From: a virus
IMG/VR virus record: IMGVR_UViG_3300045988_135711
Strand: one strand, 5' to 3'
DNA length: 43,296 nucleotides
Part shown: in pieces, positions 1 to 43,296 of the stretch
How the letters are laid out: each line of letters starts with the position of its first letter
How positions within the stretch are numbered: the first letter of the stretch is position 1
Program-made: the position numbers and the translations under genes
The notes under the pieces: model-generated
What the model was told of the DNA's origin: nothing
Database searches by the model: none
The model's input: only the letters and a program-made list of their open reading frames with translations

Positions 1-55
1 ACACAAATGCCAAATTGGTTTTTAGAACGGTGCAGTATCGGTAAATCGGGCGGGG
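1..55. repeat. 55-bp terminal direct repeat, identical to 43242-43296; overlap of a circular assembly
   Basis: acacaaatgccaaattggtttttagaacggtgcagtatcggtaaatcgggcgggg occurs at both ends of the window. Confidence 0.95.
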
Positions 56-550: not shown

Positions 551-577
551 TTCATTCCCTTATATTCAAATTGAAAC

Positions 578-658
578 TTTGATACCCAGTATTCGATTTT
601 TGGTTTTTGATACCCGATTTCGAAAACTGGTTTTTTGATTATTAAATTCGAAATTTCG
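578..658. repeat. direct repeats TTTGATACCC (578-587 and 606-615; degenerate copy 633-643) interleaved with TTCGA(A/T) motifs
   Basis: Read directly from the sequence, immediately downstream of the HNH stop. Repeat spacing is 28 bp. Confidence 0.6.
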
Positions 659-868
659 TTTTTACACAAAAAAAGAACGAATAAATAAAACTTAACTAAT
701 GCCATAAAAAAACAAAATACAAAACACAACAAGTGAAAACGGAATAGAAAAATTAATCAAAATAACAATATCTATAACAAACAAACATGCGGTGGACGAT
801 GAACCAAATCGTTCGAAATGACGTATTTCAGTATGATTGACCGCTTGCTTACTGATCATATAATTGTT

Positions 869-1005
869 TACGGTACTATGTGGACATAGAATAGGAACGA
901 TTTTCGAGAGTGATAGACACTGAATAAAAGTATAGTTGATTGAATAAATGGTCTGAATCCTTTCGAGAATGATTGCTATTGCAGGTTCGATTCCTGCTGT
1001 CGTAT
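869..1005 (+). ncRNA. tRNA-like four-way junction RNA element; not a canonical tRNA
   Basis: T arm gcagg-TTCGATT-cctgc (981-997). Acceptor pairing tacggta (869-875) with tgtcgta (998-1004). Hairpin ctatg-UGGA-catag (876-889). Long irregular arm 890-910 paired with 960-980. Confidence 0.4.
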
Positions 1006-1833
1006 TAAACCTAGATAAGCCTTTCATAGAACACATAGAGGTTAACCTTTCACCCTCATCTTTCTTTCCCCTTCCTTCACTAACTTATCTAGGTTTTCTA
1101 TTTTTAAATAAATAAAAAAGATTGCTCTAAACTTTCGTTTAAAACAATCTAAACCTCTTATTTAATTCAATTCTATAAAATCCTAAACAAAACACATAAA
1201 TATATACTTATACATCCACTCTTTTAAAAAAATAGTGGTGGTAGTCATATATGCCCGCCGAGTTATATAAAAAACGTTAATAAGGCGAGAAAAAAAGTAA
1301 AAAAAGTCATTTCGGACAAATTATCGGAAAAAGGGACAAAGTCCGGGTGTTTACATTTTTCATGAAAACTGTTTTCATAAAGGATTTTCAAAGAACAACG
1401 GTTTTAATATCGTAAATATTTAAATATTCGCCCTTAACCTAACATTAAATTTTTAGTTTGTCAATAGGTCGAAAAATCGGAAAAATTCAAGCGGTGAGGG
1501 CGGTTTATAGATTCGCTATTTATGTATTTGTATTTAGCGCTGTATGCTTGTGGATTTGAAACAGAATATAAAAACAAGCCCTTTCTTTTAAAAACGCTGT
1601 AAGGGGCTTTAATTCGCAAAATACAAAAGGGTGCGAAAATGTAAATATTTTAAAATTTAATAATTAGGTCGCTTGATTTGTTTTTGTGTTTTTGAATCCA
1701 CGCAAACAAAAACAGCGTACATACATACGCTTATAATAGCAGATATCAAAATACACTAAAATTAATAGAATCGCTTAAATCGCAAATATGGACGAATTAG
1801 GAAGGGTATGTTTTTAGCAGCAGGATCTAAAAA

Positions 1834-1868
1834 AGAAAATAAAAAAAGAGTGGTGTTTAAACCACTCT
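1834..1868 (-). terminator. intrinsic terminator of the minus-strand cassette, possibly bidirectional
   Basis: 8-bp stem agagtggt/accactct (1847-1854 and 1861-1868), followed on the - strand by a T-run (A-run 1834-1847 on the + strand). Confidence 0.8.
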
Positions 1869-2764: not shown

Positions 2765-2989
2765 CTATAATTCAATTTTAAAATCAAGATAATCATCAAC
2801 TAAATCGAGTATATTAGTATATAGATTTTTTACTAAATCTTCTATAGCTAAGGGTAATTTGTGTAGTTTGAAATCTTGAATAAAATTATATAAATCATCT
2901 TTGTAGTAATCATCAATAAAGCAGAATATATCAAGTTGTGCATCTTTCATGTTATTTGCCTTCTTTCTTAAATTATAAATTTTCTTCAA
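2765..2989 (-). CDS. hypothetical acidic protein (74 aa)
   Basis: ORF that overlaps the upstream gene by 17 nt, suggesting translational coupling. Confidence 0.65.
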   Translation of the reverse strand: MKKIYNLRKKANNMKDAQLDIFCFIDDYYKDDLYNFIQDFKLHKLPLAIEDLVKNLYTNILDLVDDYLDFKIEL

Positions 2990-3464
2990 TCCATCTATTC
3001 ATAATTTCTTCCATGTAGTCGTTATAAGGTATTTCGCTTGTTGTCTCAATATTTCCATAAGCATTAATTTTAAAATAATCATCAGTGAAATGAACCTTAC
3101 CAAAGAAACAAGCTCGCAATGCTTCGTAAGGCGTTGAGAAGAATTCATTAATCATATCTTCATCAAAATCATAATACTCATCGTAAAAAATATCGCTTAT
3201 ATCGTTTAAATCAAGATAGAAATCTTCTGACGTGTCTAAGTCTTCTAATCTATTTAAAAGTTTATCCAATCTATATAAAGGAATTTCATTATTACTATTT
3301 ACTAAATATGTCCCGCAATTCGAAACACATTCATAATCTTCAAAAGTTGCATCGTATTCAGTAAGATTATCAACGTTATCATAAAAATCTTGATACGCTT
3401 GTTGGTCGCTCCATCCTTCAAACACTTGTTTACCATCTTTAGTTACTTTTACATATAATTTCAT
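2973..3464 (-). CDS. hypothetical highly acidic D/E/Y-rich protein (163 aa)
   Basis: ORF with RBS gaaaggaag 5-10 nt upstream of the ATG. Confidence 0.75.
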   Translation of the reverse strand: MKLYVKVTKDGKQVFEGWSDQQAYQDFYDNVDNLTEYDATFEDYECVSNCGTYLVNSNNEIPLYRLDKLLNRLEDLDTSEDFYLDLNDISDIFYDEYYDFDEDMINEFFSTPYEALRACFFGKVHFTDDYFKINAYGNIETTSEIPYNDYMEEIMNRWIEENL

Positions 3465-3714: not shown

Positions 3715-3888
3715 TTAATATAAATTTTGGAAAACTTTTTTAAAAACATATTTGTTTATTGATAAATTTTCTTGTTCGGCTTTCTTCTTTATTAGATTAT
3801 ATTCGTCGTCCGTAAGTCTGAAAGATACTAATTTATCACGCTTTAAACCTGTTGGTGGCCTTCCAATTCTTTTATGTTTTTCTTCCAC
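3715..3888 (-). CDS. ribbon-helix-helix (CopG/MobC-like) DNA-binding protein, 57 aa
   Basis: KRIGRPPTG..KRDKLVSFRLTDDEYNLIKKKAEQENLSINKYV fits the RHH pattern. GTG start at 3888 with GAGGTG RBS 6 nt upstream. The longer track ORF (to 3948) would swallow its own promoter. Confidence 0.75.
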   Translation of the reverse strand: MEEKHKRIGRPPTGLKRDKLVSFRLTDDEYNLIKKKAEQENLSINKYVFKKVFQNLY

Positions 3889-3916
3889 TTGTTTCACCTC
3901 TTTTCTAACTGTCTTT

Positions 3917-3945
3917 ATTATACATACTACATAATTAAATGTCAA
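3917..3945 (-). promoter_or_regulatory. consensus sigma-A promoter P1 (TTGACA-17 nt-TATAAT)
   Basis: - strand reads TTGACAtttaattatgtagtatgTATAAT. Confidence 0.75.
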
Positions 3946-4284
3946 CACTAAACTATAAAATTTATTTCAAAAAATTAAATTATTCTTTTCCGTTTTAAAT
4001 AGTAGTTTTTTTATTTCTAGATCTAATTTACATAATCATTCATTTCATACATATTCACGCAGCTTAAATACAAGCTGTATTTTTTATGCTTATTTTTTCC
4101 TATTTAATAGAAGGAAAGAGTAAGCACAATTGAACATAATCATTTCAATTCATTCTATTAAATCATCTATATGAATCTTTCTGATGAATCCTTCATCAAT
4201 AACCTATCTAATTACCTCGTTAATTCATTCATTTATGTCTACATTTATCGTTATGAAAATAAATGAAAACAATATCTTGTGTTG

Positions 4285-4456: not shown

Positions 4457-4951
4457 ATGGCAAACCTTGCTAGACCAATATCTTTAAGCGTTATTGAAGG
4501 TAAAAAACAGAAGCGAAGTAATGAAGAAATTAGGCGCAGAAAAGAGAACGAAAAAGCACTAAAAGTTGCAAAAGATAAGCTAAAACCACCTAGTTGGTTA
4601 GGTAAAATTGCAAAAAAAGAGTTTAAGTACATTGTGGATGAAACGCAGTCTATCGAATTACTAACTAATTTAGATGTTCATACATTAGCAGTGTATTCAA
4701 ACGTTTATGAACAGTATGTAATCTGTAACCAACGTTTGTTGGAAGATGGAATCATTGTAGAAGCAAACAAAGCATCGGAAACAGTGACAGCTGCACATCC
4801 ACTATTCGTAAAGCAAGCCCAATTATTCGACCAATTACGAAAGATGCAAACTGATCTCGGTTTGTCTCCATCGTCTAGGGCAAAACTAGCATTGCATGCA
4901 GCTTTAACATCGGACAAATCAAAGGAAGAAGAGGAGTTCGATAACGTATGA
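4457..4951 (+). CDS. terS: terminase small subunit (P27 family-like)
   Basis: N-terminus MANLARPISLSVIEGKKQKRSNEEIRRRKENE; size and position directly upstream of and overlapping terL. Confidence 0.85.
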   Translation: MANLARPISLSVIEGKKQKRSNEEIRRRKENEKALKVAKDKLKPPSWLGKIAKKEFKYIVDETQSIELLTNLDVHTLAVYSNVYEQYVICNQRLLEDGIIVEANKASETVTAAHPLFVKQAQLFDQLRKMQTDLGLSPSSRAKLALHAALTSDKSKEEEEFDNV

Positions 4952-6645
4952 GTGGCTTAAAGGAATTACTGGTGCAGTATAGTATCGATGCAATCAATTC
5001 CGAACAAGGTTATTGTCAGAAAGAAAAATGGGCTTGTATGCGTTTCTTACGAGATATTGAACGAGAGAATACGGATGAGTTTCCTTATGTGTTTGATGAA
5101 GAAAAAGCATTACGATTCTTACGATGGATGACAAATTTCAAACATAGTAAAGGTGTGTTAGCAGGTAAGAATATCGACCCTGCACCTATTCAAATGTTTA
5201 TATTCGGTAATATTTACGGATGGGTGCATAGAGACACTAACTATAGACGGTTTAGGATTTCGTATTGGCAGGTAGCACGTAAAAATGGAAAGACACAATC
5301 TAATGCGTGTGTAGCTAGTTATGAATCGAGTGCATTCGGAGAGCCTTACGCCGAAGTATATATCGGTGCAACGAAAACAGAGCAAGCTAAGATTCTGTGG
5401 AATGAAACTGATATTCAAATTCGAAGCAGTGCGTTTAAGGATAAATTTAAAAAAGCATATGGAAAAATCACTCACGAAAAATCGGGCGGATTTATTCAAG
5501 CGCTATCGCAGGAAGCAGGAAAAACGGGTGACGGTTTAAACCCACAGTGTGGACTGATAGACGAATATCACGCACATAAGACATCAGAAATTTATGAAGT
5601 CCTTAAATCTGGACAGGTAGCACGTCCACAACCATTGATTAGTATTATCACTACAGCAGGTTTTGACTTATCGAATCCTTGTTATAAGGAAGAATACAAC
5701 TATGTCAGTAAATTATTAGATCCAAACGATGATACCGAAAATGATTCGTATTTCGCTATGATTAACGAATTGGATGATGGCGATGATATTAAAGACGAAC
5801 GTAACTGGATTAAAGCGAATCCTATTGTAGCTACAACAGAAGAAGGTATGAAGTTCTTACGTGACGAATTAAGAATCGCATTAGACGTTCCAGAAAAAAT
5901 GCGTAACTTCTTAACTAAGAATATGAACAAGTGGGTAGATATGCCAGAAGCGGGATATATGGATATGCAGAAATGGAATGAAGCGGAATTAGAAGAAGAT
6001 GATTTTGCAGAATTCGCAAAAGAAGGAAAAGTATATCTAGGATTCGACTTATCTATGACTACCGACTTAACATCTATCGGGCTTGTAGCACGTAAAGGAA
6101 ACGATTATCGAGTGAAACAATTATCATTCATGCCTAGCGATAAATACCAAGAACGTATTTCGAAGGATAAGGTACGTTTCGACATCTTTAGAGACCGAGG
6201 CGAATTAATACTCACGGAAGGCTCTACCGTTGATTATACGCTTGTTAAAGCCTATATATTGAAGTTCTGCAAAGAATATGACGTACAAGAAGTATGTTAC
6301 GACAAATGGAACGCCCTTCAATTAGTACATGAGTTAGAGCAAGAAGGGTTATTAATGGTTGAAATCGAACAATCAGTACGAATGTTGACGGATGCAACGA
6401 AGAAATTCCGAGAGTGCGTATACAATCTTACATTAAAACATTACCAGGACAAATTATTGAAATGGTCTGTAGGTAACGCACGATTATTTGTAGATGCTTC
6501 CGAGAATATCAAGATTACTAAGAAGAAAAGTATTGACCGTATCGACCCTGTTGCTGCATTGATTAACGCATTTAAACGTGCATCAGATGGAGAAGAAATT
6601 GTGAATTACAACGAAGTAATATTAAGCGAGGATTGGGGGTTTTAG
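4948..6645 (+). CDS. terL: terminase large subunit
   Basis: 565 aa. Walker-like ARKNGKT, DEYH, and a C-terminal nuclease region. ATGA overlap with terS. Confidence 0.9.
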   Translation: MSGLKELLVQYSIDAINSEQGYCQKEKWACMRFLRDIERENTDEFPYVFDEEKALRFLRWMTNFKHSKGVLAGKNIDPAPIQMFIFGNIYGWVHRDTNYRRFRISYWQVARKNGKTQSNACVASYESSAFGEPYAEVYIGATKTEQAKILWNETDIQIRSSAFKDKFKKAYGKITHEKSGGFIQALSQEAGKTGDGLNPQCGLIDEYHAHKTSEIYEVLKSGQVARPQPLISIITTAGFDLSNPCYKEEYNYVSKLLDPNDDTENDSYFAMINELDDGDDIKDERNWIKANPIVATTEEGMKFLRDELRIALDVPEKMRNFLTKNMNKWVDMPEAGYMDMQKWNEAELEEDDFAEFAKEGKVYLGFDLSMTTDLTSIGLVARKGNDYRVKQLSFMPSDKYQERISKDKVRFDIFRDRGELILTEGSTVDYTLVKAYILKFCKEYDVQEVCYDKWNALQLVHELEQEGLLMVEIEQSVRMLTDATKKFRECVYNLTLKHYQDKLLKWSVGNARLFVDASENIKITKKKSIDRIDPVAALINAFKRASDGEEIVNYNEVILSEDWGF

Positions 6646-23922: not shown

Positions 23923-24984
23923 TTAAAAAATATTCCGAATAACTTCGTTTTCTTCCGCTTCTTTTTCCTTTAAAATATGAGCATAAGTTTGTAGTGTAAT
24001 TGTGGGGTCAGCGTGACCTAATCGTTTACTAACTGTTAATAATTGGATACCTTTAGAAAGTAAAATACTTGCGTGAGTGTGTCTTAATGCGTGGAAGGTT
24101 ATTTTCTTATGAACACCCGCTCTAGTTAACGCTCTTGATAAAGCGTAATTCACAGAGTTATTACTCATAACTGGAAACAAACGTTCACCATTTCTGGGGA
24201 TTAGTTTTAAAATTTCTAACAACTTATCCGATACTGCAATTACACGTTTGGCATTTCTTGTTTTTCCGTCTGTAAATTCTTGCGTGAAACGATAATCAAA
24301 ACCACGATCTATTTTAATTGTTTTATTTTTGAAGTTTATACAATCCCACGTTAATCCTAAACATTCTCCAAAACGCATTCCAGTATACATAGAAAGCAGC
24401 ATAACATATCGTGTGGTATAGCTAGGTTGCAACCCTTCTAATAAAGCACGCTCTAAAGCATTAAATTCTTCATAGTTTAAATATTTAATATCTTCATTCT
24501 TTGTTAAGTGTTCTTGTCCTTTAACAACAGCTCCTTTTGTAGGGTCGTGCATGATGATTTTAGACTGGATTGCATATTCCATTGTGGCACGTACAGTTTC
24601 GTGGTATTTTTTTACTGTTCCTTTCGCTCTTGAATCAGCAAGAGTGTTTAAAAAGTTTTGGTATTTCTCTAATGTAATTTCTTTTAACGGTATATTAAAT
24701 TCATCTTTAACATATTTTATAATCGTCATATAACGAGCCTTAGTAACTTGCGTTATTGTTCCTTCTTTGAATAAGTCAAACCATTTTTTCATTAAATTTC
24801 CTAGTAATACTTTGTCTTTTTCAAACTTCTTACCAACTAGCAATTCGTTTTCTTTTAACACGGATGCATCCTTTGCTTCCGCTTTGGTTCTAAATCCGCT
24901 TTGAGATACGTATTTACGCTTTCCGTTATCGTAGTAATAAACACGGTAAGACCACGTTTTTCCTCTTTTCGTAATGCTTGCCAT
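23923..24984 (-). CDS. int: tyrosine integrase
   Basis: 353 aa. N-terminal arm-binding-like KTWSYRVYY; catalytic R...HALRHTH...Y region. Confidence 0.92.
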   Translation of the reverse strand: MASITKRGKTWSYRVYYYDNGKRKYVSQSGFRTKAEAKDASVLKENELLVGKKFEKDKVLLGNLMKKWFDLFKEGTITQVTKARYMTIIKYVKDEFNIPLKEITLEKYQNFLNTLADSRAKGTVKKYHETVRATMEYAIQSKIIMHDPTKGAVVKGQEHLTKNEDIKYLNYEEFNALERALLEGLQPSYTTRYVMLLSMYTGMRFGECLGLTWDCINFKNKTIKIDRGFDYRFTQEFTDGKTRNAKRVIAVSDKLLEILKLIPRNGERLFPVMSNNSVNYALSRALTRAGVHKKITFHALRHTHASILLSKGIQLLTVSKRLGHADPTITLQTYAHILKEKEAEENEVIRNIF

Positions 24985-26893: not shown

Positions 26894-27126
26894 GAACAGA
26901 ACGAAGATTAAAGAACACAGTACCATTTATGAAATTCCTCTCGTGGTATTTGAAAGGTCTAGGAATCGTAGGTGTTAGTATCGTTGCAATCTTAGCAACA
27001 GCATTAATGATTCTGTTATATGTAGGTGAAGTAAACCATCAACACACAAACAAAGTAGACCTAATGAGAAATGGTAAGTATGTAGAAGTTGATTTTCAAG
27101 ATACGTGGAAAGTGAAGGGAGAGTAA
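26890..27126 (+). CDS. small membrane protein
   Basis: TM segment GIVGVSIVAILATALMILLYV; RBS aaaggag. Confidence 0.7.
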   Translation: MRTERRLKNTVPFMKFLSWYLKGLGIVGVSIVAILATALMILLYVGEVNHQHTNKVDLMRNGKYVEVDFQDTWKVKGE

Positions 27127-27129
27127 ATA

Positions 27130-27354
27130 ATGTTTGGAGAAATTAAAGATATGGTGAAAGTTCTTATCCCTGTTTTGGACGTCTTATATAACAGTGATGC
27201 AAGTTTGGAAGACTGCTTAGGAGCGCTAGAAGCAATTACTGGAGCGATTAGGGATAATCAAAAAGATGTTAATACTAAAGAAATTTTCAAAACTTTGAAA
27301 GTACTTTTTGAAAACGAACTAGATAACTACGAAAATAACATATCAGAAATGTAG
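27130..27354 (+). CDS. hypothetical protein
   Basis: ORF with RBS gggagag. Confidence 0.65.
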   Translation: MFGEIKDMVKVLIPVLDVLYNSDASLEDCLGALEAITGAIRDNQKDVNTKEIFKTLKVLFENELDNYENNISEM

Positions 27355-28789: not shown

Positions 28790-28968
28790 TGAATAGAGAA
28801 TTAATCGCATACCAAAGCAATCCTGAAAAATATATAGGGATCATCAAAAGTATTTCAGAGTTAAAAACAACAAGAGATAAAGAAAATTTTTTGAATCAAA
28901 AAAGGAAACTTTTAATGGATGGTATTAAGAATAATTCTAAGAAAGGAGAAGTAAATGAATTTTGTTGA
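28789..28968 (+). CDS. hypothetical protein (59 aa)
   Basis: ATGA overlap with the replication gene stop. Confidence 0.55.
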   Translation: MNRELIAYQSNPEKYIGIIKSISELKTTRDKENFLNQKRKLLMDGIKNNSKKGEVNEFC

Positions 28969-29497
28969 ACCAATCAGAGATAAAGACGATATACAATCCA
29001 TGAAAGATTACCTAAGAGCATGGAACGAAAGAAATTACATGATGTTTCTTTTAGGTATCAACTCTGGATTGCGAATTAGCGATATCATCAATTTACGAGT
29101 GAAAGATGTACAAGGTGGCTACATTAAAACTAGGGAATTGAAGACAGGTAAACAATTAAAAAGAAAAATGCCACCTATTTTAAAAAAAGAGTTGCAGGCG
29201 TATATAAAAGACAAACCGCTTCATCACTATTTATTCCAAAGTAGAAATGGAAAAAACAAACATATAAGTCGATGTACAGCTTATTTAATTTTAAAAATTG
29301 CTGCAGAGGAATGTGGAATCGATAATGTAGGTACTCACACGATGCGTAAAACATTCGGGTATCACCAATACAAGAAAAATAAAGATGTTGCTACTTTAAT
29401 GGAATTATTTAACCATTCAAGCCCAGCAATTACTTTAAAATACATCGGAATACGTCAAGACCAACAAGATAAAGCTATGTCGAATTTTGGTTTATAA
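28955..29497 (+). CDS. small tyrosine recombinase, catalytic domain only (180 aa)
   Basis: GLRISD (Arg), THTMRKTF (His-x-x-Arg), HSSPAITLKYIG (His...Tyr); RBS aaaggag. Confidence 0.8.
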   Translation: MNFVEPIRDKDDIQSMKDYLRAWNERNYMMFLLGINSGLRISDIINLRVKDVQGGYIKTRELKTGKQLKRKMPPILKKELQAYIKDKPLHHYLFQSRNGKNKHISRCTAYLILKIAAEECGIDNVGTHTMRKTFGYHQYKKNKDVATLMELFNHSSPAITLKYIGIRQDQQDKAMSNFGL

Positions 29498-41602: not shown

Positions 41603-41833
41603 ATGCTCACTTTATACTCAAAACCAAATTGCATGCAGTGCAAGTTTACAAAAGAATATTTACTAGATCATAACATCGAATATAAAGAAATTAATGTCAT
41701 GGAAGATGTAGAAAAATTAGAATACATCAAAAACGAACTAGGGTATCAAACGTTACCCGTGATTGAAACTGATACAGGGAATTCGTGGTTCGGATTCCGA
41801 CCCGATTTACTGGAGGGGTTGAATGGAGAATAA
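41603..41833 (+). CDS. nrdH: NrdH-like glutaredoxin
   Basis: LYSKPNCMQCKFTKEYL has the CxxC thioredoxin-fold pattern; 76 aa. Confidence 0.85.
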   Translation: MLTLYSKPNCMQCKFTKEYLLDHNIEYKEINVMEDVEKLEYIKNELGYQTLPVIETDTGNSWFGFRPDLLEGLNGE

Positions 41834-42227
41834 TTATCATTTAAAGCAGATTCGGTTAATTGATAAAGAGATTAATCAAATGCTAAATGAATTAGAACGC
41901 ATTCAATGTTCATTGATGCGCAGTCCACAATTAAAGCAAGTAAGTGTGCAGGAATCAAAAGTTGGATTGAAGGACGATGTGTATATCAAGATGATTGAAT
42001 ACAATGATAAGATTAATCAGAAAGTGGATGAATTAATCGATACGAAAAAGAAAGTATTCGATACAATCGAACAAATCAAAGACCATGAACAACGATTGAT
42101 TTTAAAAATGCGCTATGTGGATTGTGAAAAATGGGAAGACATCGAAGAGGAATTGCATGTATCGAAAAATACGATGCATAGAATCCACAGAAAAGCATTA
42201 AAAGAATTTAATTCATTATGGTACTAA
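41823..42227 (+). CDS. ArpU/RinA-like late-gene transcriptional activator (sigma region-4-like)
   Basis: C-terminal ILKMRYVDCEKWEDIEEELHVSKNTMHRIHRKALKEF; last early gene before the packaging region. Confidence 0.8.
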   Translation: MENNYHLKQIRLIDKEINQMLNELERIQCSLMRSPQLKQVSVQESKVGLKDDVYIKMIEYNDKINQKVDELIDTKKKVFDTIEQIKDHEQRLILKMRYVDCEKWEDIEEELHVSKNTMHRIHRKALKEFNSLWY

Positions 42228-43040
42228 TTGCGCTAGAATGTGACTATATATGTGTGGTAATGTTATTGTGCAATAAATGGCTATGGGGCAACTCATAGCC
42301 TATACATACTAATCGGCTTAGCGATATAATCCTTGGTGACAAGGGAAAGTTACTCTTTTATATGTCAAGAGTAGCGGTGGTAAAATACCAATCTAAGCAA
42401 CGTGGGTATTAATGGAATAAGAAATTGTTCCAGCTTCGAAAACTATCATTTTTAGGCAGAGTCAATCGATGAGCCAATGCAGTCATGCGTTAATGAATGG
42501 TTGAAGAAGTGATATGACACAAGGTAATAGCGTGAGGGTAGCTCTAAGCGCAACTACCATGAATAGATTTCTTGAGGTGGACAACCTTGTAAATCTATTT
42601 GAGTGAAGAACGATGCTAACGTTCATGCATAACAAGCAGGCGCTGGGGATTTTGTTATTCAAAAGATAACGAACTCTAAGGCAATGCGTGTCTGTGACAA
42701 TATAAATATGGGATAATGACGATTTAAAACTTATTAGCAAAATAAGCAGATTGGATTAAAGCAAAAGTCATTGCCCGTTATAAACGATAGTGCCTTTTTG
42801 TAGGATTGACCTACACACGAAACCTTCGCAAGAGGAATCGTGAAGTCGAAAAGTAAAGCAGTTTAGACCGTAGCTAGGTTTTTATTAATTGAAAGACGGC
42901 TTAGTAGTTTATAACGATACGAGTAGTTAGCGATACTAACTAGGCATGAGTGTTACGTGTAGGGATATGCGTGGAAACGAAACTAAAACATAAGGTTTCA
43001 AAAGACACTCAAACGTTACCTGTATTCTCAAGGTGTTAAA

Positions 43041-43093
43041 TGCTGTACCCGTGGAAGGGCGTTTATGTTAAGGTTCGATTCCTTATGCAGCAG
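43041..43093 (+). ncRNA. truncated tRNA-like module: acceptor stem, short UGGA-loop hairpin and canonical T arm; no anticodon arm
   Basis: tgctgta (43041-47) pairs with tgcagca (43086-92). ccc-GUGGAA-ggg (43048-59). taagg-TTCGATT-cctta (43069-85). Confidence 0.5.
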
Positions 43094-43130
43094 TTTTGAT
43101 TGCGGTATATATCTAAGGAGTATACCTTTA

Positions 43131-43162
43131 CCTCTCATGTTTATTGCATGAGGGGTATTTTT
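43131..43162 (+). terminator. intrinsic terminator closing the ncRNA unit
   Basis: 9-bp stem cctctcatg/catgagggg with a 7-nt loop, then taTTTTTa. Confidence 0.8.
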
Positions 43163-43187: not shown

Positions 43188-43296
43188 ATGGAATATAAAA
43201 CAACGATTGTACGTAGGGCGGTACAGTTCACTGGTGATTTAACACAAATGCCAAATTGGTTTTTAGAACGGTGCAGTATCGGTAAATCGGGCGGGG
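43188..43296 (+). CDS. hypothetical protein, N-terminal part of the junction-spanning ORF (continues at position 56 of the window)
   Basis: ATG at 43188 with RBS aaaggag 6 nt upstream, in frame with 7..213. Confidence 0.6.
   Translation, partial: MEYKTTIVRRAVQFTGDLTQMPNWFLERCSIGKSGG
43242..43296. repeat. 55-bp terminal direct repeat, a copy of 1-55
   Basis: Exact identity with the start of the window. Confidence 0.95.

What the first reader, a model, noticed from the sequence alone, without database searches (positions are those of the whole stretch)
869..1005. Second tRNA-like element: a four-way junction whose anticodon arm is replaced by a long arm of about 90 nt
A second canonical T arm, gcagg-TTCGATT-cctgc (981-997), is followed by tgtcgta (998-1004). 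That segment pairs over 7 positions, two of them G-U, with tacggta (869-875). As in the 43041 element, the 5' acceptor strand is followed at once by a hairpin with UGGA in its loop (ctatg-UGGA-catag, 876-889). The remaining 890-980 can close on itself: aatag/ctatt at 890-894 with 976-980, and ttcgagag/ctttcgag at 903-910 with 960-967. The second pairing arises because the two TTTCGAGA direct repeats contain the TCGA palindrome. The result is an acceptor / D-like hairpin / long arm / T arm junction with no unpaired linkers. At 137 nt it is too long for a tRNA and too short to hold a group I intron. Two non-decoding tRNA mimics of the same design bracket the small-ORF/HNH pair, which argues against chance.
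Basis: partly seen in the sequence, partly recalled or inferred. Interest (0 to 1): 0.65.

Follow-up and report, generated by a model that had tools for sequence, protein, structure and literature searches.

The report
Phage tRNA-like RNA lacking an anticodon
A temperate phage of lactic-acid-type bacteria carries a conserved small RNA gene that keeps a tRNA's acceptor stem, T arm and elbow but has a long conserved hairpin in place of the anticodon arm, so it cannot decode and probably uses the host's tRNA-processing enzymes for some other, still unknown, job.

Summary

- **Relatives.** The element is conserved in about 13 distinct related phage contigs of three lineages. Across them 97.6% of pair cells are kept. 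Six arm pairs changed on both sides, and the two acceptor G·U pairs became A-U and U-A.
- **What it is not.** No canonical tRNA, tmRNA, intron or other Rfam family is detected here. The overlapping minus-strand ORF is not conserved, and the integrase lies 23 kb away.
- **What it is.** It is a paralogue of the tRNA-like element that follows a GOLLD RNA (42635-43034) by 6 nt. Relatives without GOLLD carry that first element with its own long arm. The two elements co-occur in every relative that covers both sites, whereas GOLLD is optional.
- **Gene layout.** Promoter-like site, no encoded CCA, U73-U74-A75, then a terminator-like hairpin. This copies the monocistronic CCA-less tRNA genes of Bacilli.
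- **Best reading.** A tRNA-derived, non-decoding RNA matured by RNase P, RNase Z and the CCA-adding enzyme, with the tRNA half acting as a scaffold for the arm.

Its function is unknown. I rate it a new variant of a known kind.

The parts
837..864 (+). Promoter-like site TTGACC-16-TATAAT, ending 4 nt before the acceptor stem
   Evidence: 11 of 12 consensus matches. The lineage C relative L124 has TTGCTT-16-TATAAT 11 nt upstream of its element. The -10 hexamer is degraded in L003/L004/L122 and weak in lineage B, so the promoter is likely but not proven.
869..875 (+). 5' acceptor strand UACGGUA
   Evidence: Pairs with 998-1004. G873.U1000 and U874.G999 become A-U and U-A in lineage B.
876..889 (+). 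D-like hairpin CUAUG-UGGA-CAUAG with a GG in its loop
   Evidence: The stem CUAU/AUAG is invariant. The loop is UGGA in lineage A, UUGG in B and AUAGG in C, and always holds GG. The paralogue E1 has CC(C)-GUGGAA-GG(G).
890..980 (+). Long arm in the place of the anticodon arm: 26 pairs and a variable A/U-rich apical loop of about 30 nt (920-949)
   Evidence: All six pairs with changes on both sides lie in this arm, and 96% of its cells are paired.
910..960 (+). Near-invariant distal module of the arm, GUGAUAGACA (910-919) opposite GGUCUGAAUCC (950-960; C953 is U in lineages B and C). It has a 1-nt U bulge and a 2-nt GA bulge and flanks the apical loop.
   Evidence: GUGAUAGACA is identical in lineages A, B and C, and the opposite strand differs only at C953 (U in B and C), while neighbouring stems covary. 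This is a candidate binding site, by inference.
981..997 (+). Canonical T arm GCAGG-UUCGAUU-CCUGC
   Evidence: It is invariant within E2. In E1 the first two stem pairs are changed on both sides (UAAGG/CCUUA).
998..1005 (+). 3' acceptor strand UGUCGUA and discriminator U1005. No CCA is encoded; U1006 and A1007 follow.
   Evidence: This U73-U74-A75-plus-hairpin layout matches that described for B. subtilis CCA-less tRNA genes cut by RNase Z (PMC1874595).
1007..1105 (+). 13-bp hairpin (1007-1019 with 1084-1096) enclosing a largely unstructured, pyrimidine-rich 64-nt loop, followed by a U-rich run. It may be a terminator and/or a 3' trailer RNA.
   Evidence: Perfect inverted repeat (I7). In lineage B the stem is rewritten compensatorily, CCTAGATAAG/CTTATCTAGG becoming CCTAAACAGAC/GTCTGTTTAGG.
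43041..43093 (+). Paralogous tRNA-like element E1: acceptor UGCUGUA/UGCAGCA, GG hairpin, 9-nt linker, T arm UAAGG-UUCGAUU-CCUUA and discriminator G. It lies 6 nt after GOLLD.
   Evidence: The model built from E2 hits it at 21 bits, E about 0.002-0.012 depending on how much sequence was searched. Pair 6:67 is U.G, C-G (L134) or U-A (L114). Long-arm versions occur in L122 and L134.
42635..43034 (+). GOLLD RNA conserved 3' domain (context, not part of the element)
   Evidence: Rfam RF02032, 230 bits against a gathering score of 150.

Best explanation
Window 869-1005 is a real + strand RNA gene, called E2 here. It is a tRNA-derived RNA that cannot decode.

It keeps the parts of a tRNA that the maturation machinery reads: a 7-bp acceptor stem stacked on a 5-bp T stem (12 bp in all), a UUCGAUU T loop, and a GG hairpin that could dock on the T loop to form the elbow. 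The anticodon arm is replaced by a conserved hairpin of 87-91 nt, joined with no linker nucleotides.

The gene is laid out like a monocistronic CCA-less tRNA gene of Bacilli, with a promoter a few nucleotides upstream, U73-U74-A75, and a terminator-like hairpin.

Inferred mechanism:
1. Host RNA polymerase makes a transcript of about 230 nt.
2. RNase P trims any short leader.
3. RNase Z cuts after U1005.
4. The CCA-adding enzyme caps the 3' end.
5. The product is a stable RNA of about 137-140 nt. Its tRNA half provides defined ends and nuclease resistance. The arm, with its near-invariant bulged module GUGAUAGACA/GGUYUGAAUCC, is the working part and probably binds a protein or another RNA.
6. 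A pyrimidine-rich 3' trailer hairpin is released at the same time.

Shown: the structure, the strand, the conservation, the paralogy with E1, and the gene layout. Inferred: every processing step and the role of the arm. My confidence that this is a genuine tRNA-like structured RNA is about 0.9. My confidence in the processing-and-scaffold mechanism is about 0.4.
For: - The MFE fold equals the proposed junction, with z = -2.7, and is stronger on the + strand. The model scores 166 bits on + and 38 on -.
- BLAST conservation with lineage B begins exactly at 869.
- Covariation: 97.6% of cells paired, 6 pairs changed on both sides, and acceptor G.U pairs replaced by A-U and U-A. Slid controls give 32-55%.
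- Compared with the paralogue E1, acceptor pairs 2:71 and 4:69 and T-stem pairs 49:65 and 50:64 are changed on both sides, and the GG hairpin stem is wholly rewritten.
- E1 and E2 co-occur in all 11 phage variants that cover both sites, while GOLLD is optional.
- The arm of E1 is swapped or deleted between relatives, which fits a scaffold carrying a changeable insert.
- Promoter-like site, 11 of 12, and a TATAAT in L124.
- The downstream hairpin covaries.
- The CCA-less, U74-A75, hairpin layout matches B. subtilis RNase Z substrates (PMC1874595).
- In Streptococcus phages GOLLD is followed 6 nt later by a true tRNA-Ser and then by a degenerate tRNA-like element. This slot is therefore a tRNA island where such derivatives arise.
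Against: - There are no expression or cleavage data.
- Only three lineages are available, one of them truncated. The covariation events are few and not independent.
- Helices 2 and 4 never vary within E2.
- The -10 hexamer is not conserved in the closest relatives. E2 may instead be read through from the HNH gene.
- The junction lacks nucleotides 8, 9, 26 and a variable loop, so an L-shape is plausible but unproven.
- No partner for the arm was found. The duplex scan of the loops against the genome gave nothing specific, and no phage protein with an RNA-related Pfam domain was found among the 29 larger ORFs scanned.
Confidence: 0.55

Rival explanations
1. E2 is a cis-acting processing signal, comparable to plant mitochondrial t-elements or MALAT1 mascRNA. 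It is co-transcribed with the small ORF and HNH genes. RNase P cleavage at 868/869 creates the 3' end of that mRNA, E1 similarly defines the 3' end of GOLLD, and the excised tRNA-like piece is a by-product.
For: No + strand terminator was found between the HNH stop (550) and 869. The E2 promoter is not conserved in L003/L004/L122. E1 lies 6 nt after GOLLD, and a true tRNA-Ser occupies that same position in a Streptococcus phage. E1 tolerates complete loss of its arm.
Against: The E2 arm is conserved with compensatory changes and a near-invariant module. A mere cleavage signal would not need this. TATAAT boxes lie just upstream in two lineages. A terminator follows E1 (43129-43160), so the two elements need not share a transcript.
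Confidence: 0.2
2. E2 is a decoy or sponge for a host factor that recognises the acceptor/T-arm half of tRNAs. Examples are a toxin or defence enzyme acting on tRNA 3' ends, or a processing or modifying enzyme. On this reading it is a phage counter-defence or host-takeover RNA.
For: The tRNA top half is intact but the anticodon is gone. The phage carries two such RNAs and no true tRNA. E2 lies among moron-like units between cos and the terminase genes.
Against: This is purely inferential. The neighbouring genes match nothing in PADLOC, and in Pfam and PHROGs they match nothing related to tRNA (only a small RHH-type regulator and one family of unknown function). It does not explain the conserved arm.
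Confidence: 0.12
3. E2 is aminoacylated and acts on the ribosome or as an aminoacyl donor, like tmRNA or the tRNA-like 3' ends of plant viruses.
For: A 12-bp acceptor/T stack and a likely CCA addition would allow it. Synthetases such as SerRS and AlaRS can charge a tRNA without reading the anticodon (established knowledge). The long arm abuts the T arm as a class II variable arm does. A degenerate Ser-like element occurs in the same slot in a Streptococcus phage.
Against: There is no G3.U70: pair 3:70 is C-G. E2 has A2-U71 and U73, which fits no acceptor-only identity set that I know of. ARAGORN finds no tmRNA and Rfam has no match. There is no tag reading frame, because the apical loop has stop codons in all three frames.
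Confidence: 0.04
4. E2 is a decaying pseudo-tRNA left over from a phage tRNA island and has no present function.
For: It sits where related phages carry tRNAs and degenerate tRNAs. The arm of E1 comes and goes.
Against: Across lineages that are about 75% identical in E2, and not alignable immediately upstream of it, every helix is maintained. The conserved block starts exactly at the acceptor stem.
Confidence: 0.06
5. E2 is not an RNA element at all. It could be a chance fold, the coding sequence of the minus-strand ORF 692-1036, or a tRNA 3' fragment from an attachment site.
For: A 114-aa ATG ORF on the - strand covers the whole element. Phage attP sites often contain tRNA 3' ends.
Against: The ORF has no Pfam hit and is absent in lineage B, whose indels shift the frame. 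The integrase is at 23923-24984. A scan of 185,579 reference genomes for the exact arm-T-arm junction pattern (bases 973-997, which do not include the acceptor strand) found nothing. Both acceptor strands are present and they covary.
Confidence: 0.02

Closest known systems
Phage T4 species 1 RNA (rnaC, 139 nt, in the T4 tRNA cluster)
   Same: A phage-encoded stable RNA of about 140 nt, found next to tRNA genes and a homing endonuclease. It has a canonical T arm (CCGGG-UUCGAAU-CCCGG), 5' and 3' ends that pair like an acceptor stem, long hairpins where the anticodon arm would be, and no known function.
   Different: There is no detectable sequence homology: the E2 model gives only 13.7 bits. T4 rnaC has two internal hairpins and no GG hairpin. 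It comes from a Gram-negative lytic myovirus and is co-transcribed with true tRNAs.
tRNAs and tRNA-like elements associated with GOLLD RNA
   Same: GOLLD is reported 'often near tRNA islands', with tRNAs sometimes inside its linker (PMC12286853). Here E1 follows GOLLD by 6 nt. In S. agalactiae phage phiGBSVK-D a true tRNA-Ser follows GOLLD by 6 nt and is itself followed by an unannotated degenerate tRNA-like element.
   Different: This phage group has no decoding tRNA at all. E2 lies 1.1 kb away, beyond two genes. E1 and E2 persist in relatives that lack GOLLD (L005, L122, L134). No paper in the searched library links GOLLD with the term 'tRNA-like'.
tmRNA tRNA-like domain with the P2 helix
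   Same: An acceptor stem, a T arm and a reduced D region, with a long helix where the anticodon stem would be.
   Different: E2 has no G3.U70, no tag ORF and no pseudoknots. It is 137 nt, against about 350 nt for tmRNA. Neither ARAGORN nor Rfam detects it.
tRNA-like processing modules: MALAT1 mascRNA, plant mitochondrial t-elements, gammaherpesvirus tRNA-miRNA units, and the engineered tRNA scaffold for recombinant RNA
   Same: A non-decoding tRNA mimic is used to recruit RNase P or RNase Z, which defines the ends of, or stabilises, an attached RNA. The hairpin directly 3' of the mimic resembles the herpesvirus tRNA-miRNA arrangement. An insert in the anticodon position resembles the engineered scaffold (established knowledge; PMC8457004 and PMC1920247 were listed but not read).
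   Different: Those are eukaryotic, organellar or artificial systems. No cleavage has been shown for E2.
Bacterial Y-RNA-like YrlA
   Same: A non-coding RNA with a tRNA-like module plus a long stem; some are phage-encoded (own knowledge).
   Different: In YrlA the RNA termini lie in the long stem and the acceptor-like helix is closed. E2 has the opposite, permuted topology. There is no Rfam match, and no Ro/Rsr-type domain appeared among the 29 larger ORFs scanned.

Membership tests
Canonical decoding tRNA | Cloverleaf with a 5-bp anticodon stem and a 7-nt anticodon loop; detected by tRNA finders | tested here: not met
   ARAGORN finds 0 genes in the window. Rfam gives no tRNA match even at E<=10. 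A 91-nt hairpin occupies the anticodon-arm position.
Canonical decoding tRNA | 7-bp acceptor stem, 5-bp T stem, UUCRANY T loop with G53-C61, and GG in the D loop | tested here: met
   869-875 with 998-1004; GCAGG-UUCGAUU-CCUGC; loop UGGA, UUGG or AUAGG always holding GG.
Canonical decoding tRNA | Linker nucleotides 8, 9 and 26, a variable loop, and a D stem with an 8-11 nt loop | tested here: not met
   All four helices abut with no linker nucleotides, and the D-like loop is 4-5 nt.
tmRNA | G3.U70 alanine identity, a tag reading frame, pseudoknots, and detection by ARAGORN or Rfam | tested here: not met
   Pair 3:70 is C871-G1002. There is no ARAGORN tmRNA and no Rfam hit. The arm is a simple hairpin.
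GOLLD RNA (RF02032) | Match to the GOLLD covariance model, or contiguity with it | tested here: not met
   GOLLD lies at 42635-43034. E2 lies 1.1 kb downstream on the circular map, beyond two ORFs, and is present in GOLLD-less relatives.
tRNA gene interrupted by a group I intron | Intron of at least about 200 nt with the P3-P8 core, inserted in an anticodon loop | tested here: not met
   The insert is 91 nt and forms a single hairpin. There is no intron family match. No anticodon stem remains.
attP / tRNA 3'-end fragment | Lies next to the integrase, is identical to a host tRNA 3' half, and lacks a 5' acceptor strand | tested here: not met
   The integrase is at 23923-24984. The scan of representative genomes for the exact arm-T-arm junction pattern (973-997) found no match. 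The 5' strand is present and covaries.
RNase P / RNase Z-processed tRNA-like module (mascRNA or t-element type; CCA-less tRNA gene layout) | 12-bp acceptor/T stack, T loop, no encoded CCA, U after the discriminator, and a downstream hairpin | tested here: met
   7 + 5 bp; U1005 followed by U1006 and A1007; hairpin 1007-1096. Compared with the B. subtilis trnSL-Ala1 layout in PMC1874595.
RNase P / RNase Z-processed tRNA-like module (mascRNA or t-element type; CCA-less tRNA gene layout) | Actual cleavage by RNase P and RNase Z, and accumulation of the product | not testable with these tools
   This needs RNA-seq, RACE or in vitro cleavage assays.
T4 species 1 RNA (rnaC) | Sequence or structure homology to rnaC | tested here: inconclusive
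   The E2 model hits rnaC at 13.7 bits, driven by the T arm. The overall design is similar but the helices cannot be aligned. I treat it as an analogue, not a member.
Protein-coding gene (minus-strand ORF 692-1036) | Reading frame conserved in relatives, or a family match | tested here: not met
   No Pfam hit. Lineage B has no minus-strand ORF of 30 aa or more across the element. Its indels of 2, 4, 1 and 1 nt shift the frame.

The most novel reading that the evidence does not exclude
E1 and E2 could be natural 'tRNA scaffolds'. On this reading the phage uses the tRNA top half as a portable handle for processing and stability, and plugs interchangeable RNA arms into it. The evidence is that the arm of E1 is swapped, or deleted, between close relatives (L122, L134, the window), and that a 15-nt motif, UGAAUAAAAGUAUAG, is shared between the arm of one E1 and the arm of E2. 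These scaffolded arms might be effectors in their own right. They might also be partners or cargo of the GOLLD nanocage, to which E1 is covalently joined. If so, they would be the first functional handle on GOLLD biology.
Probability: 0.15. Interest if true: 0.8.

Novelty: new variant of a known kind. Interest (0 to 1): 0.55.

Why it matters
Non-decoding tRNA mimics are known in eukaryotic viruses, organelles and long non-coding RNAs. In phages they are almost unstudied: T4 RNA C has had no assigned function for about 50 years.

This element is a clean, covarying example with a simple architecture and is absent from Rfam. It has a paralogue that is physically joined to GOLLD, an RNA whose 14-subunit cage structure is solved but whose function is unknown.

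Because relatives exist with and without GOLLD, and with long or short arms, the system offers natural genetic contrasts. These could be used to test what tRNA-like modules do for phages, and whether 'tRNAs near GOLLD' need to be decoding tRNAs at all.

The family appears confined to a narrow clade of Lactobacillales phages, and nothing here yet shows a function. That limits its present importance.

Tried and rejected
- **tmRNA.** ARAGORN and Rfam are negative and there is no G3.U70.
- **Intron-containing tRNA.** The insert is too short and no intron model matches.
- **Minus-strand ORF 692-1036.** It is not conserved and has no family match.
- **Plus-strand ORF 969-1115.** Its ATG is lost in L003, L117 and L122 (AAG).
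- **attP remnant.** The integrase is 23 kb away, and no representative genome carries the arm-T-arm junction pattern.
- **Antisense targets.** A duplex scan of the arm loop and the CU-rich loop against both strands of the genome found only generic purine-rich ribosome-binding sites. The best was 27105-27135, at z = -4.5 among about 8,600 windows.
- **Neighbouring genes as clues.** PADLOC gave nothing. Pfam and PHROGs gave only a small RHH-type regulator (3715-3948) and one PHROG family of unknown function, nothing related to tRNA.
- **Widening the family.**
  - The INPHARED phage collection had no DNA match to 551-1880.
  - A loose pattern scan of IMG/VR returned 89 stretches; apart from contigs of the four phages already known, all were chance matches.
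  - More distant HNH loci (67-71% identity and below) lack E2.
  - The full-length lineage C element could not be recovered.
- **Promoter conservation.** It is convincing only in the window and in L124.

Full report
**Context**

The window is a closed circular phage contig. Bases 1-55 repeat 43242-43296, so its two ends are neighbours.

Gene content marks a temperate siphovirus of Bacilli:
- a tyrosine integrase at 23923-24984, an ImmA-like protease and an HTH repressor
- SSB and a C5 cytosine methylase
- small and large terminase subunits at 4457-6645, with the large subunit at most 59% identical to those of Geobacillus and Bacillus phages
- a DUF1492 late activator with a sigma-70 region 4-like domain at 41823-42227
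- an HNH endonuclease at 209-550

The only hit in 185,579 reference genomes is a MAG labelled 'uncultured Carnobacterium sp.'. Rfam finds a GOLLD RNA at 42635-43034, at 230 bits.

On the circular map the order is: late activator, GOLLD, tRNA-like element E1 (43041-43093), terminator, small ORF, HNH, iterons (592-663, probably the cos/terminase site), the finding E2 (869-1005), about 800 nt of conserved non-coding DNA, minus-strand small genes, and the terminase genes.

**The observation**

The unconstrained MFE fold of 869-1005 is the proposed four-way junction:
- a 7-bp acceptor stem
- CUAUG-UGGA-CAUAG
- a long arm
- GCAGG-UUCGAUU-CCUGC

No linker nucleotides separate the helices. The fold is -35.2 kcal/mol with z = -2.7, and 1 of 200 shuffles does as well. 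The reverse strand folds worse, at -23.3 kcal/mol. The T-loop core GGTTCGANTCC occurs twice in 43 kb, at E1 and E2, where 0.05 is expected.

**Homologues and covariation**

Exact-pattern scans, HNH-anchored synteny and a covariance model built from five sequences (R1) recovered E2 in about 20 contigs. These give 13 distinct sequences in three lineages:
- Lineage A: like the window.
- Lineage B: about 75% identical.
- Lineage C: the Carnobacterium MAG, cut at model position 113 by the contig end.

Alignable sequence between A and B begins exactly at base 869. The 85 nt upstream are unrelated.

On the 13-sequence alignment:
- 97.6% of pair cells are standard pairs, against 32-55% when the 3' partners are slid by 1-3 columns.
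- Six pairs, all in the long arm, changed on both sides.
- Eight more pairs changed on one side, G.U to A-U or G-C.
- No shuffle reached the observed paired fraction or covariation score.

The two acceptor G.U pairs (873.1000 and 874.999) are A-U and U-A in lineage B. These G.U pairs, the 166-bit versus 38-bit strand asymmetry and the fold energies all assign the RNA to the + strand.

The GG hairpin and T stem never vary within E2, so E2 alone says nothing about them. The events are few and phylogenetically linked. The evidence is good for the arm and moderate for the acceptor stem.

**Paralogy with E1**

R1 also hits E1 at 21 bits (E about 0.002-0.012 depending on how much sequence was searched), as a full-length match with the arm deleted.

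Compared with E2, E1 shows these differences:
- Acceptor pairs 2:71 (G-C versus A-U) and 4:69 (U-A versus G-C) changed on both sides.
- T-stem pairs 49:65 and 50:64 changed on both sides (UAAGG/CCUUA versus GCAGG/CCUGC).
- The GG hairpin rewritten as CC(C)-GUGGAA-GG(G).

Within E1, pair 6:67 is U.G, C-G (L134) or U-A (L114).

In this window E1 has only a 9-nt linker. Two close relatives lack GOLLD and carry E1 with a long arm:
- L122 (lineage A phage): 154 nt.
- L134 (lineage B phage): 131 nt, fold z = -4.4.

The L122 arm contains UGAAUAAAAGUAUAG, the same 15-mer as the apical loop of E2 (922-936). L005 lacks GOLLD and has the short E1.

The pattern is therefore:
- E1 and E2 are paralogues of one design.
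- They co-occur in every variant that covers both sites.
- GOLLD is optional.
- The arm of E1 is dispensable and exchangeable.
- The arm of E2 is conserved.
- More distant phages with HNH at 71% identity or less lack E2.

**Relation to the known GOLLD and tRNA association**

GOLLD is described as lying 'often near tRNA islands', sometimes with tRNAs in its linker (PMC12286853). Three comparisons bear on this:
- In S. agalactiae phage phiGBSVK-D, GOLLD is followed 6 nt later by a true tRNA-Ser(gct). Next comes an unannotated element of about 100 nt with an acceptor-like stem, a GG hairpin, a stub with a 3-nt loop, a long hairpin resembling a variable arm, and a T arm.
- Pneumococcal phage IPP60 has a T-arm element after GOLLD that ARAGORN does not call.
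- A more distant HNH phage (L125) has a tRNA-Met plus a short T-arm element in the same slot.

E1 and E2 are therefore best seen as tRNA-island genes that lost decoding ability but kept the top half of the tRNA. The long arm may descend from a class II variable arm or from an expanded anticodon arm. I cannot tell which.

**Alternatives excluded**

- Not a tRNA or tmRNA.
- Not an intron-bearing tRNA. The insert is a single 91-nt hairpin.
- Not coding. The 114-aa minus-strand ORF 692-1036 has no family match and disappears in lineage B, and the + strand ORF 969-1115 loses its ATG in L003 and L122.
- Not an att remnant. The integrase is 23 kb away, both acceptor strands are present, and no representative genome carries the arm-T-arm junction pattern at 973-997.

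**Gene layout and likely mechanism**

Upstream, the window has TTGACC-16-TATAAT ending 4 nt before the acceptor stem, an 11 of 12 match. Lineage C has TTGCTT-16-TATAAT 11 nt upstream. The -10 hexamer is degraded in L003-type relatives and weak in lineage B. An own promoter is therefore likely but not secure.

Downstream there is no CCA. The discriminator U1005 is followed by U-A. A 13-bp hairpin follows (1007-1019 with 1084-1096), and its stem is rewritten compensatorily in lineage B. The hairpin encloses a 50-64 nt pyrimidine-rich, mostly unpaired loop and precedes a U-rich run.

This is the organisation of monocistronic CCA-less tRNA genes in B. subtilis: a short leader, U74-A75 and a terminator hairpin. 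Those genes are cut by RNase Z after the discriminator and then receive CCA, and RNase P can act without CCA (PMC1874595).

I therefore infer the following:
1. E2 is matured by host RNase P, RNase Z and the CCA-adding enzyme into a stable RNA of about 137-140 nt.
2. The tRNA half serves as a handle for processing and stability.
3. The conserved arm is the functional moiety, through its near-invariant bulged module GUGAUAGACA/GGUYUGAAUCC (910-919 and 950-960).
4. The CU-rich trailer may be a second product.

None of these steps is demonstrated.

Aminoacylation is unlikely. Pair 3:70 is C-G, and A2-U71 with U73 fits no acceptor-only identity set that I know of.

**What remains unknown**

No target or partner was found. 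Loop-versus-genome duplex scans gave only generic ribosome-binding sites. The neighbouring genes have no informative family. No RNA-related protein domain was found among the 29 larger ORFs scanned.

The main rivals are a pure cis processing signal, a decoy for a tRNA-binding host factor, and a decaying pseudo-tRNA. The conserved, covarying arm argues against the first and the third.

**Closest known and novelty**

The nearest phage analogue is T4 species 1 RNA (rnaC, 139 nt). It has a T arm, acceptor-like closure and long hairpins, lies in the tRNA cluster beside a homing endonuclease, and still has no known function. There is no real homology; R1 gives 13.7 bits.

Mechanistic analogues, none shown in a phage, are:
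- mascRNA
- plant t-elements
- herpesvirus tRNA-miRNA units
- the engineered tRNA scaffold

Rfam has no family for E2, and the searched literature does not link GOLLD with 'tRNA-like' elements.

**Verdict**

This is a real, conserved element and a new variant of a known kind, the non-decoding tRNA mimics. It is confined to a narrow phage clade. It is of moderate interest, raised by its link to GOLLD and by the natural arm and GOLLD variants that make it testable.

Noticed in passing
window 1-55 and 43242-43296: The two ends of the window are identical over 55 nt. The contig is therefore a closed circle, or terminally redundant, of about 43,241 bp, and the 43041 element lies only about 1.1 kb upstream of the finding.
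   Followed up: yes
window 42635-43034 (5' domain probably from about 42270): A GOLLD RNA (RF02032, 230 bits) lies directly downstream of the DUF1492 late-activator gene. It is absent from three otherwise close relatives (L005, L122, L134), so it behaves as an optional insert upstream of E1.
   Followed up: partly
L122 1602-1755 (-) and L134 1423-1553 (+): In GOLLD-less relatives the first tRNA-like element carries a long arm of about 75-105 nt. The arm sequence differs completely between the two phages. The L122 arm shares the 15-mer TGAATAAAAGTATAG with the arm loop of E2.
   Followed up: partly
window 551-700: Iterons TTCGAnnnnTnGTTTTT at 592, 619 and 647 (27-28 bp apart), with TTTGATACCC repeats. 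This is the non-coding block after HNH that is most widely conserved, even in distant HNH phages (L007-L010, L125, L133). It is probably the cos or terminase-binding site.
   Followed up: partly
window 1228-1868: About 640 nt of non-coding DNA conserved at 68-71% with lineage B, with no conserved ORF. It contains invariant blocks (for example AAATCGCTGTAAGGGGCTT and GTAAATATTTTAAAATTTAATAATT), repeated CGCAAAATA...AAGGGGT motifs and several minus-strand terminator-like hairpins (1150-1119, 1731-1714, 1868-1847). It could hold DNA-level packaging or replication signals, or minus-strand small RNAs.
   Followed up: partly
window 1007-1105: A hairpin with a covarying 13-bp stem presents a pyrimidine-rich loop of about 64 nt (CACCCUCAUCUUUCUUUCCCCUUCCUUC). 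The loop resembles an anti-Shine-Dalgarno sequence and could pair with purine-rich ribosome-binding sites. The best genomic match is the RBS at 27105-27135, which is not specific.
   Followed up: partly
L137 (PP758852.1) 2985-3087: Streptococcus agalactiae phage phiGBSVK-D has an unannotated degenerate tRNA-like element immediately after its annotated tRNA-Ser, which itself follows GOLLD by 6 nt. The element has a 3-nt loop where the anticodon loop should be and a long arm resembling a variable arm. The R1 model also gives weak hits inside or upstream of the GOLLD 5' region in L137 and L138.
   Followed up: partly
window 783-868: This block is conserved only within lineage A and contains a small hairpin, GGACGAU-loop-AUCGUUC (801-821). 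Its role is unknown. It overlaps the -35 region of the putative E2 promoter.
   Followed up: no
window 28955-29497: A second, short (180 aa) ORF with a Phage_integrase catalytic domain lies in the early region, in addition to the 353-aa integrase at 23923-24984.
   Followed up: no
window 43129-43160: An intrinsic-terminator-like hairpin, CCUCUCAUG-UUUAUUG-CAUGAGGGG followed by a U run, lies about 35 nt after E1. GOLLD and E1 may therefore form their own transcription unit, separate from the small ORF and HNH.
   Followed up: no
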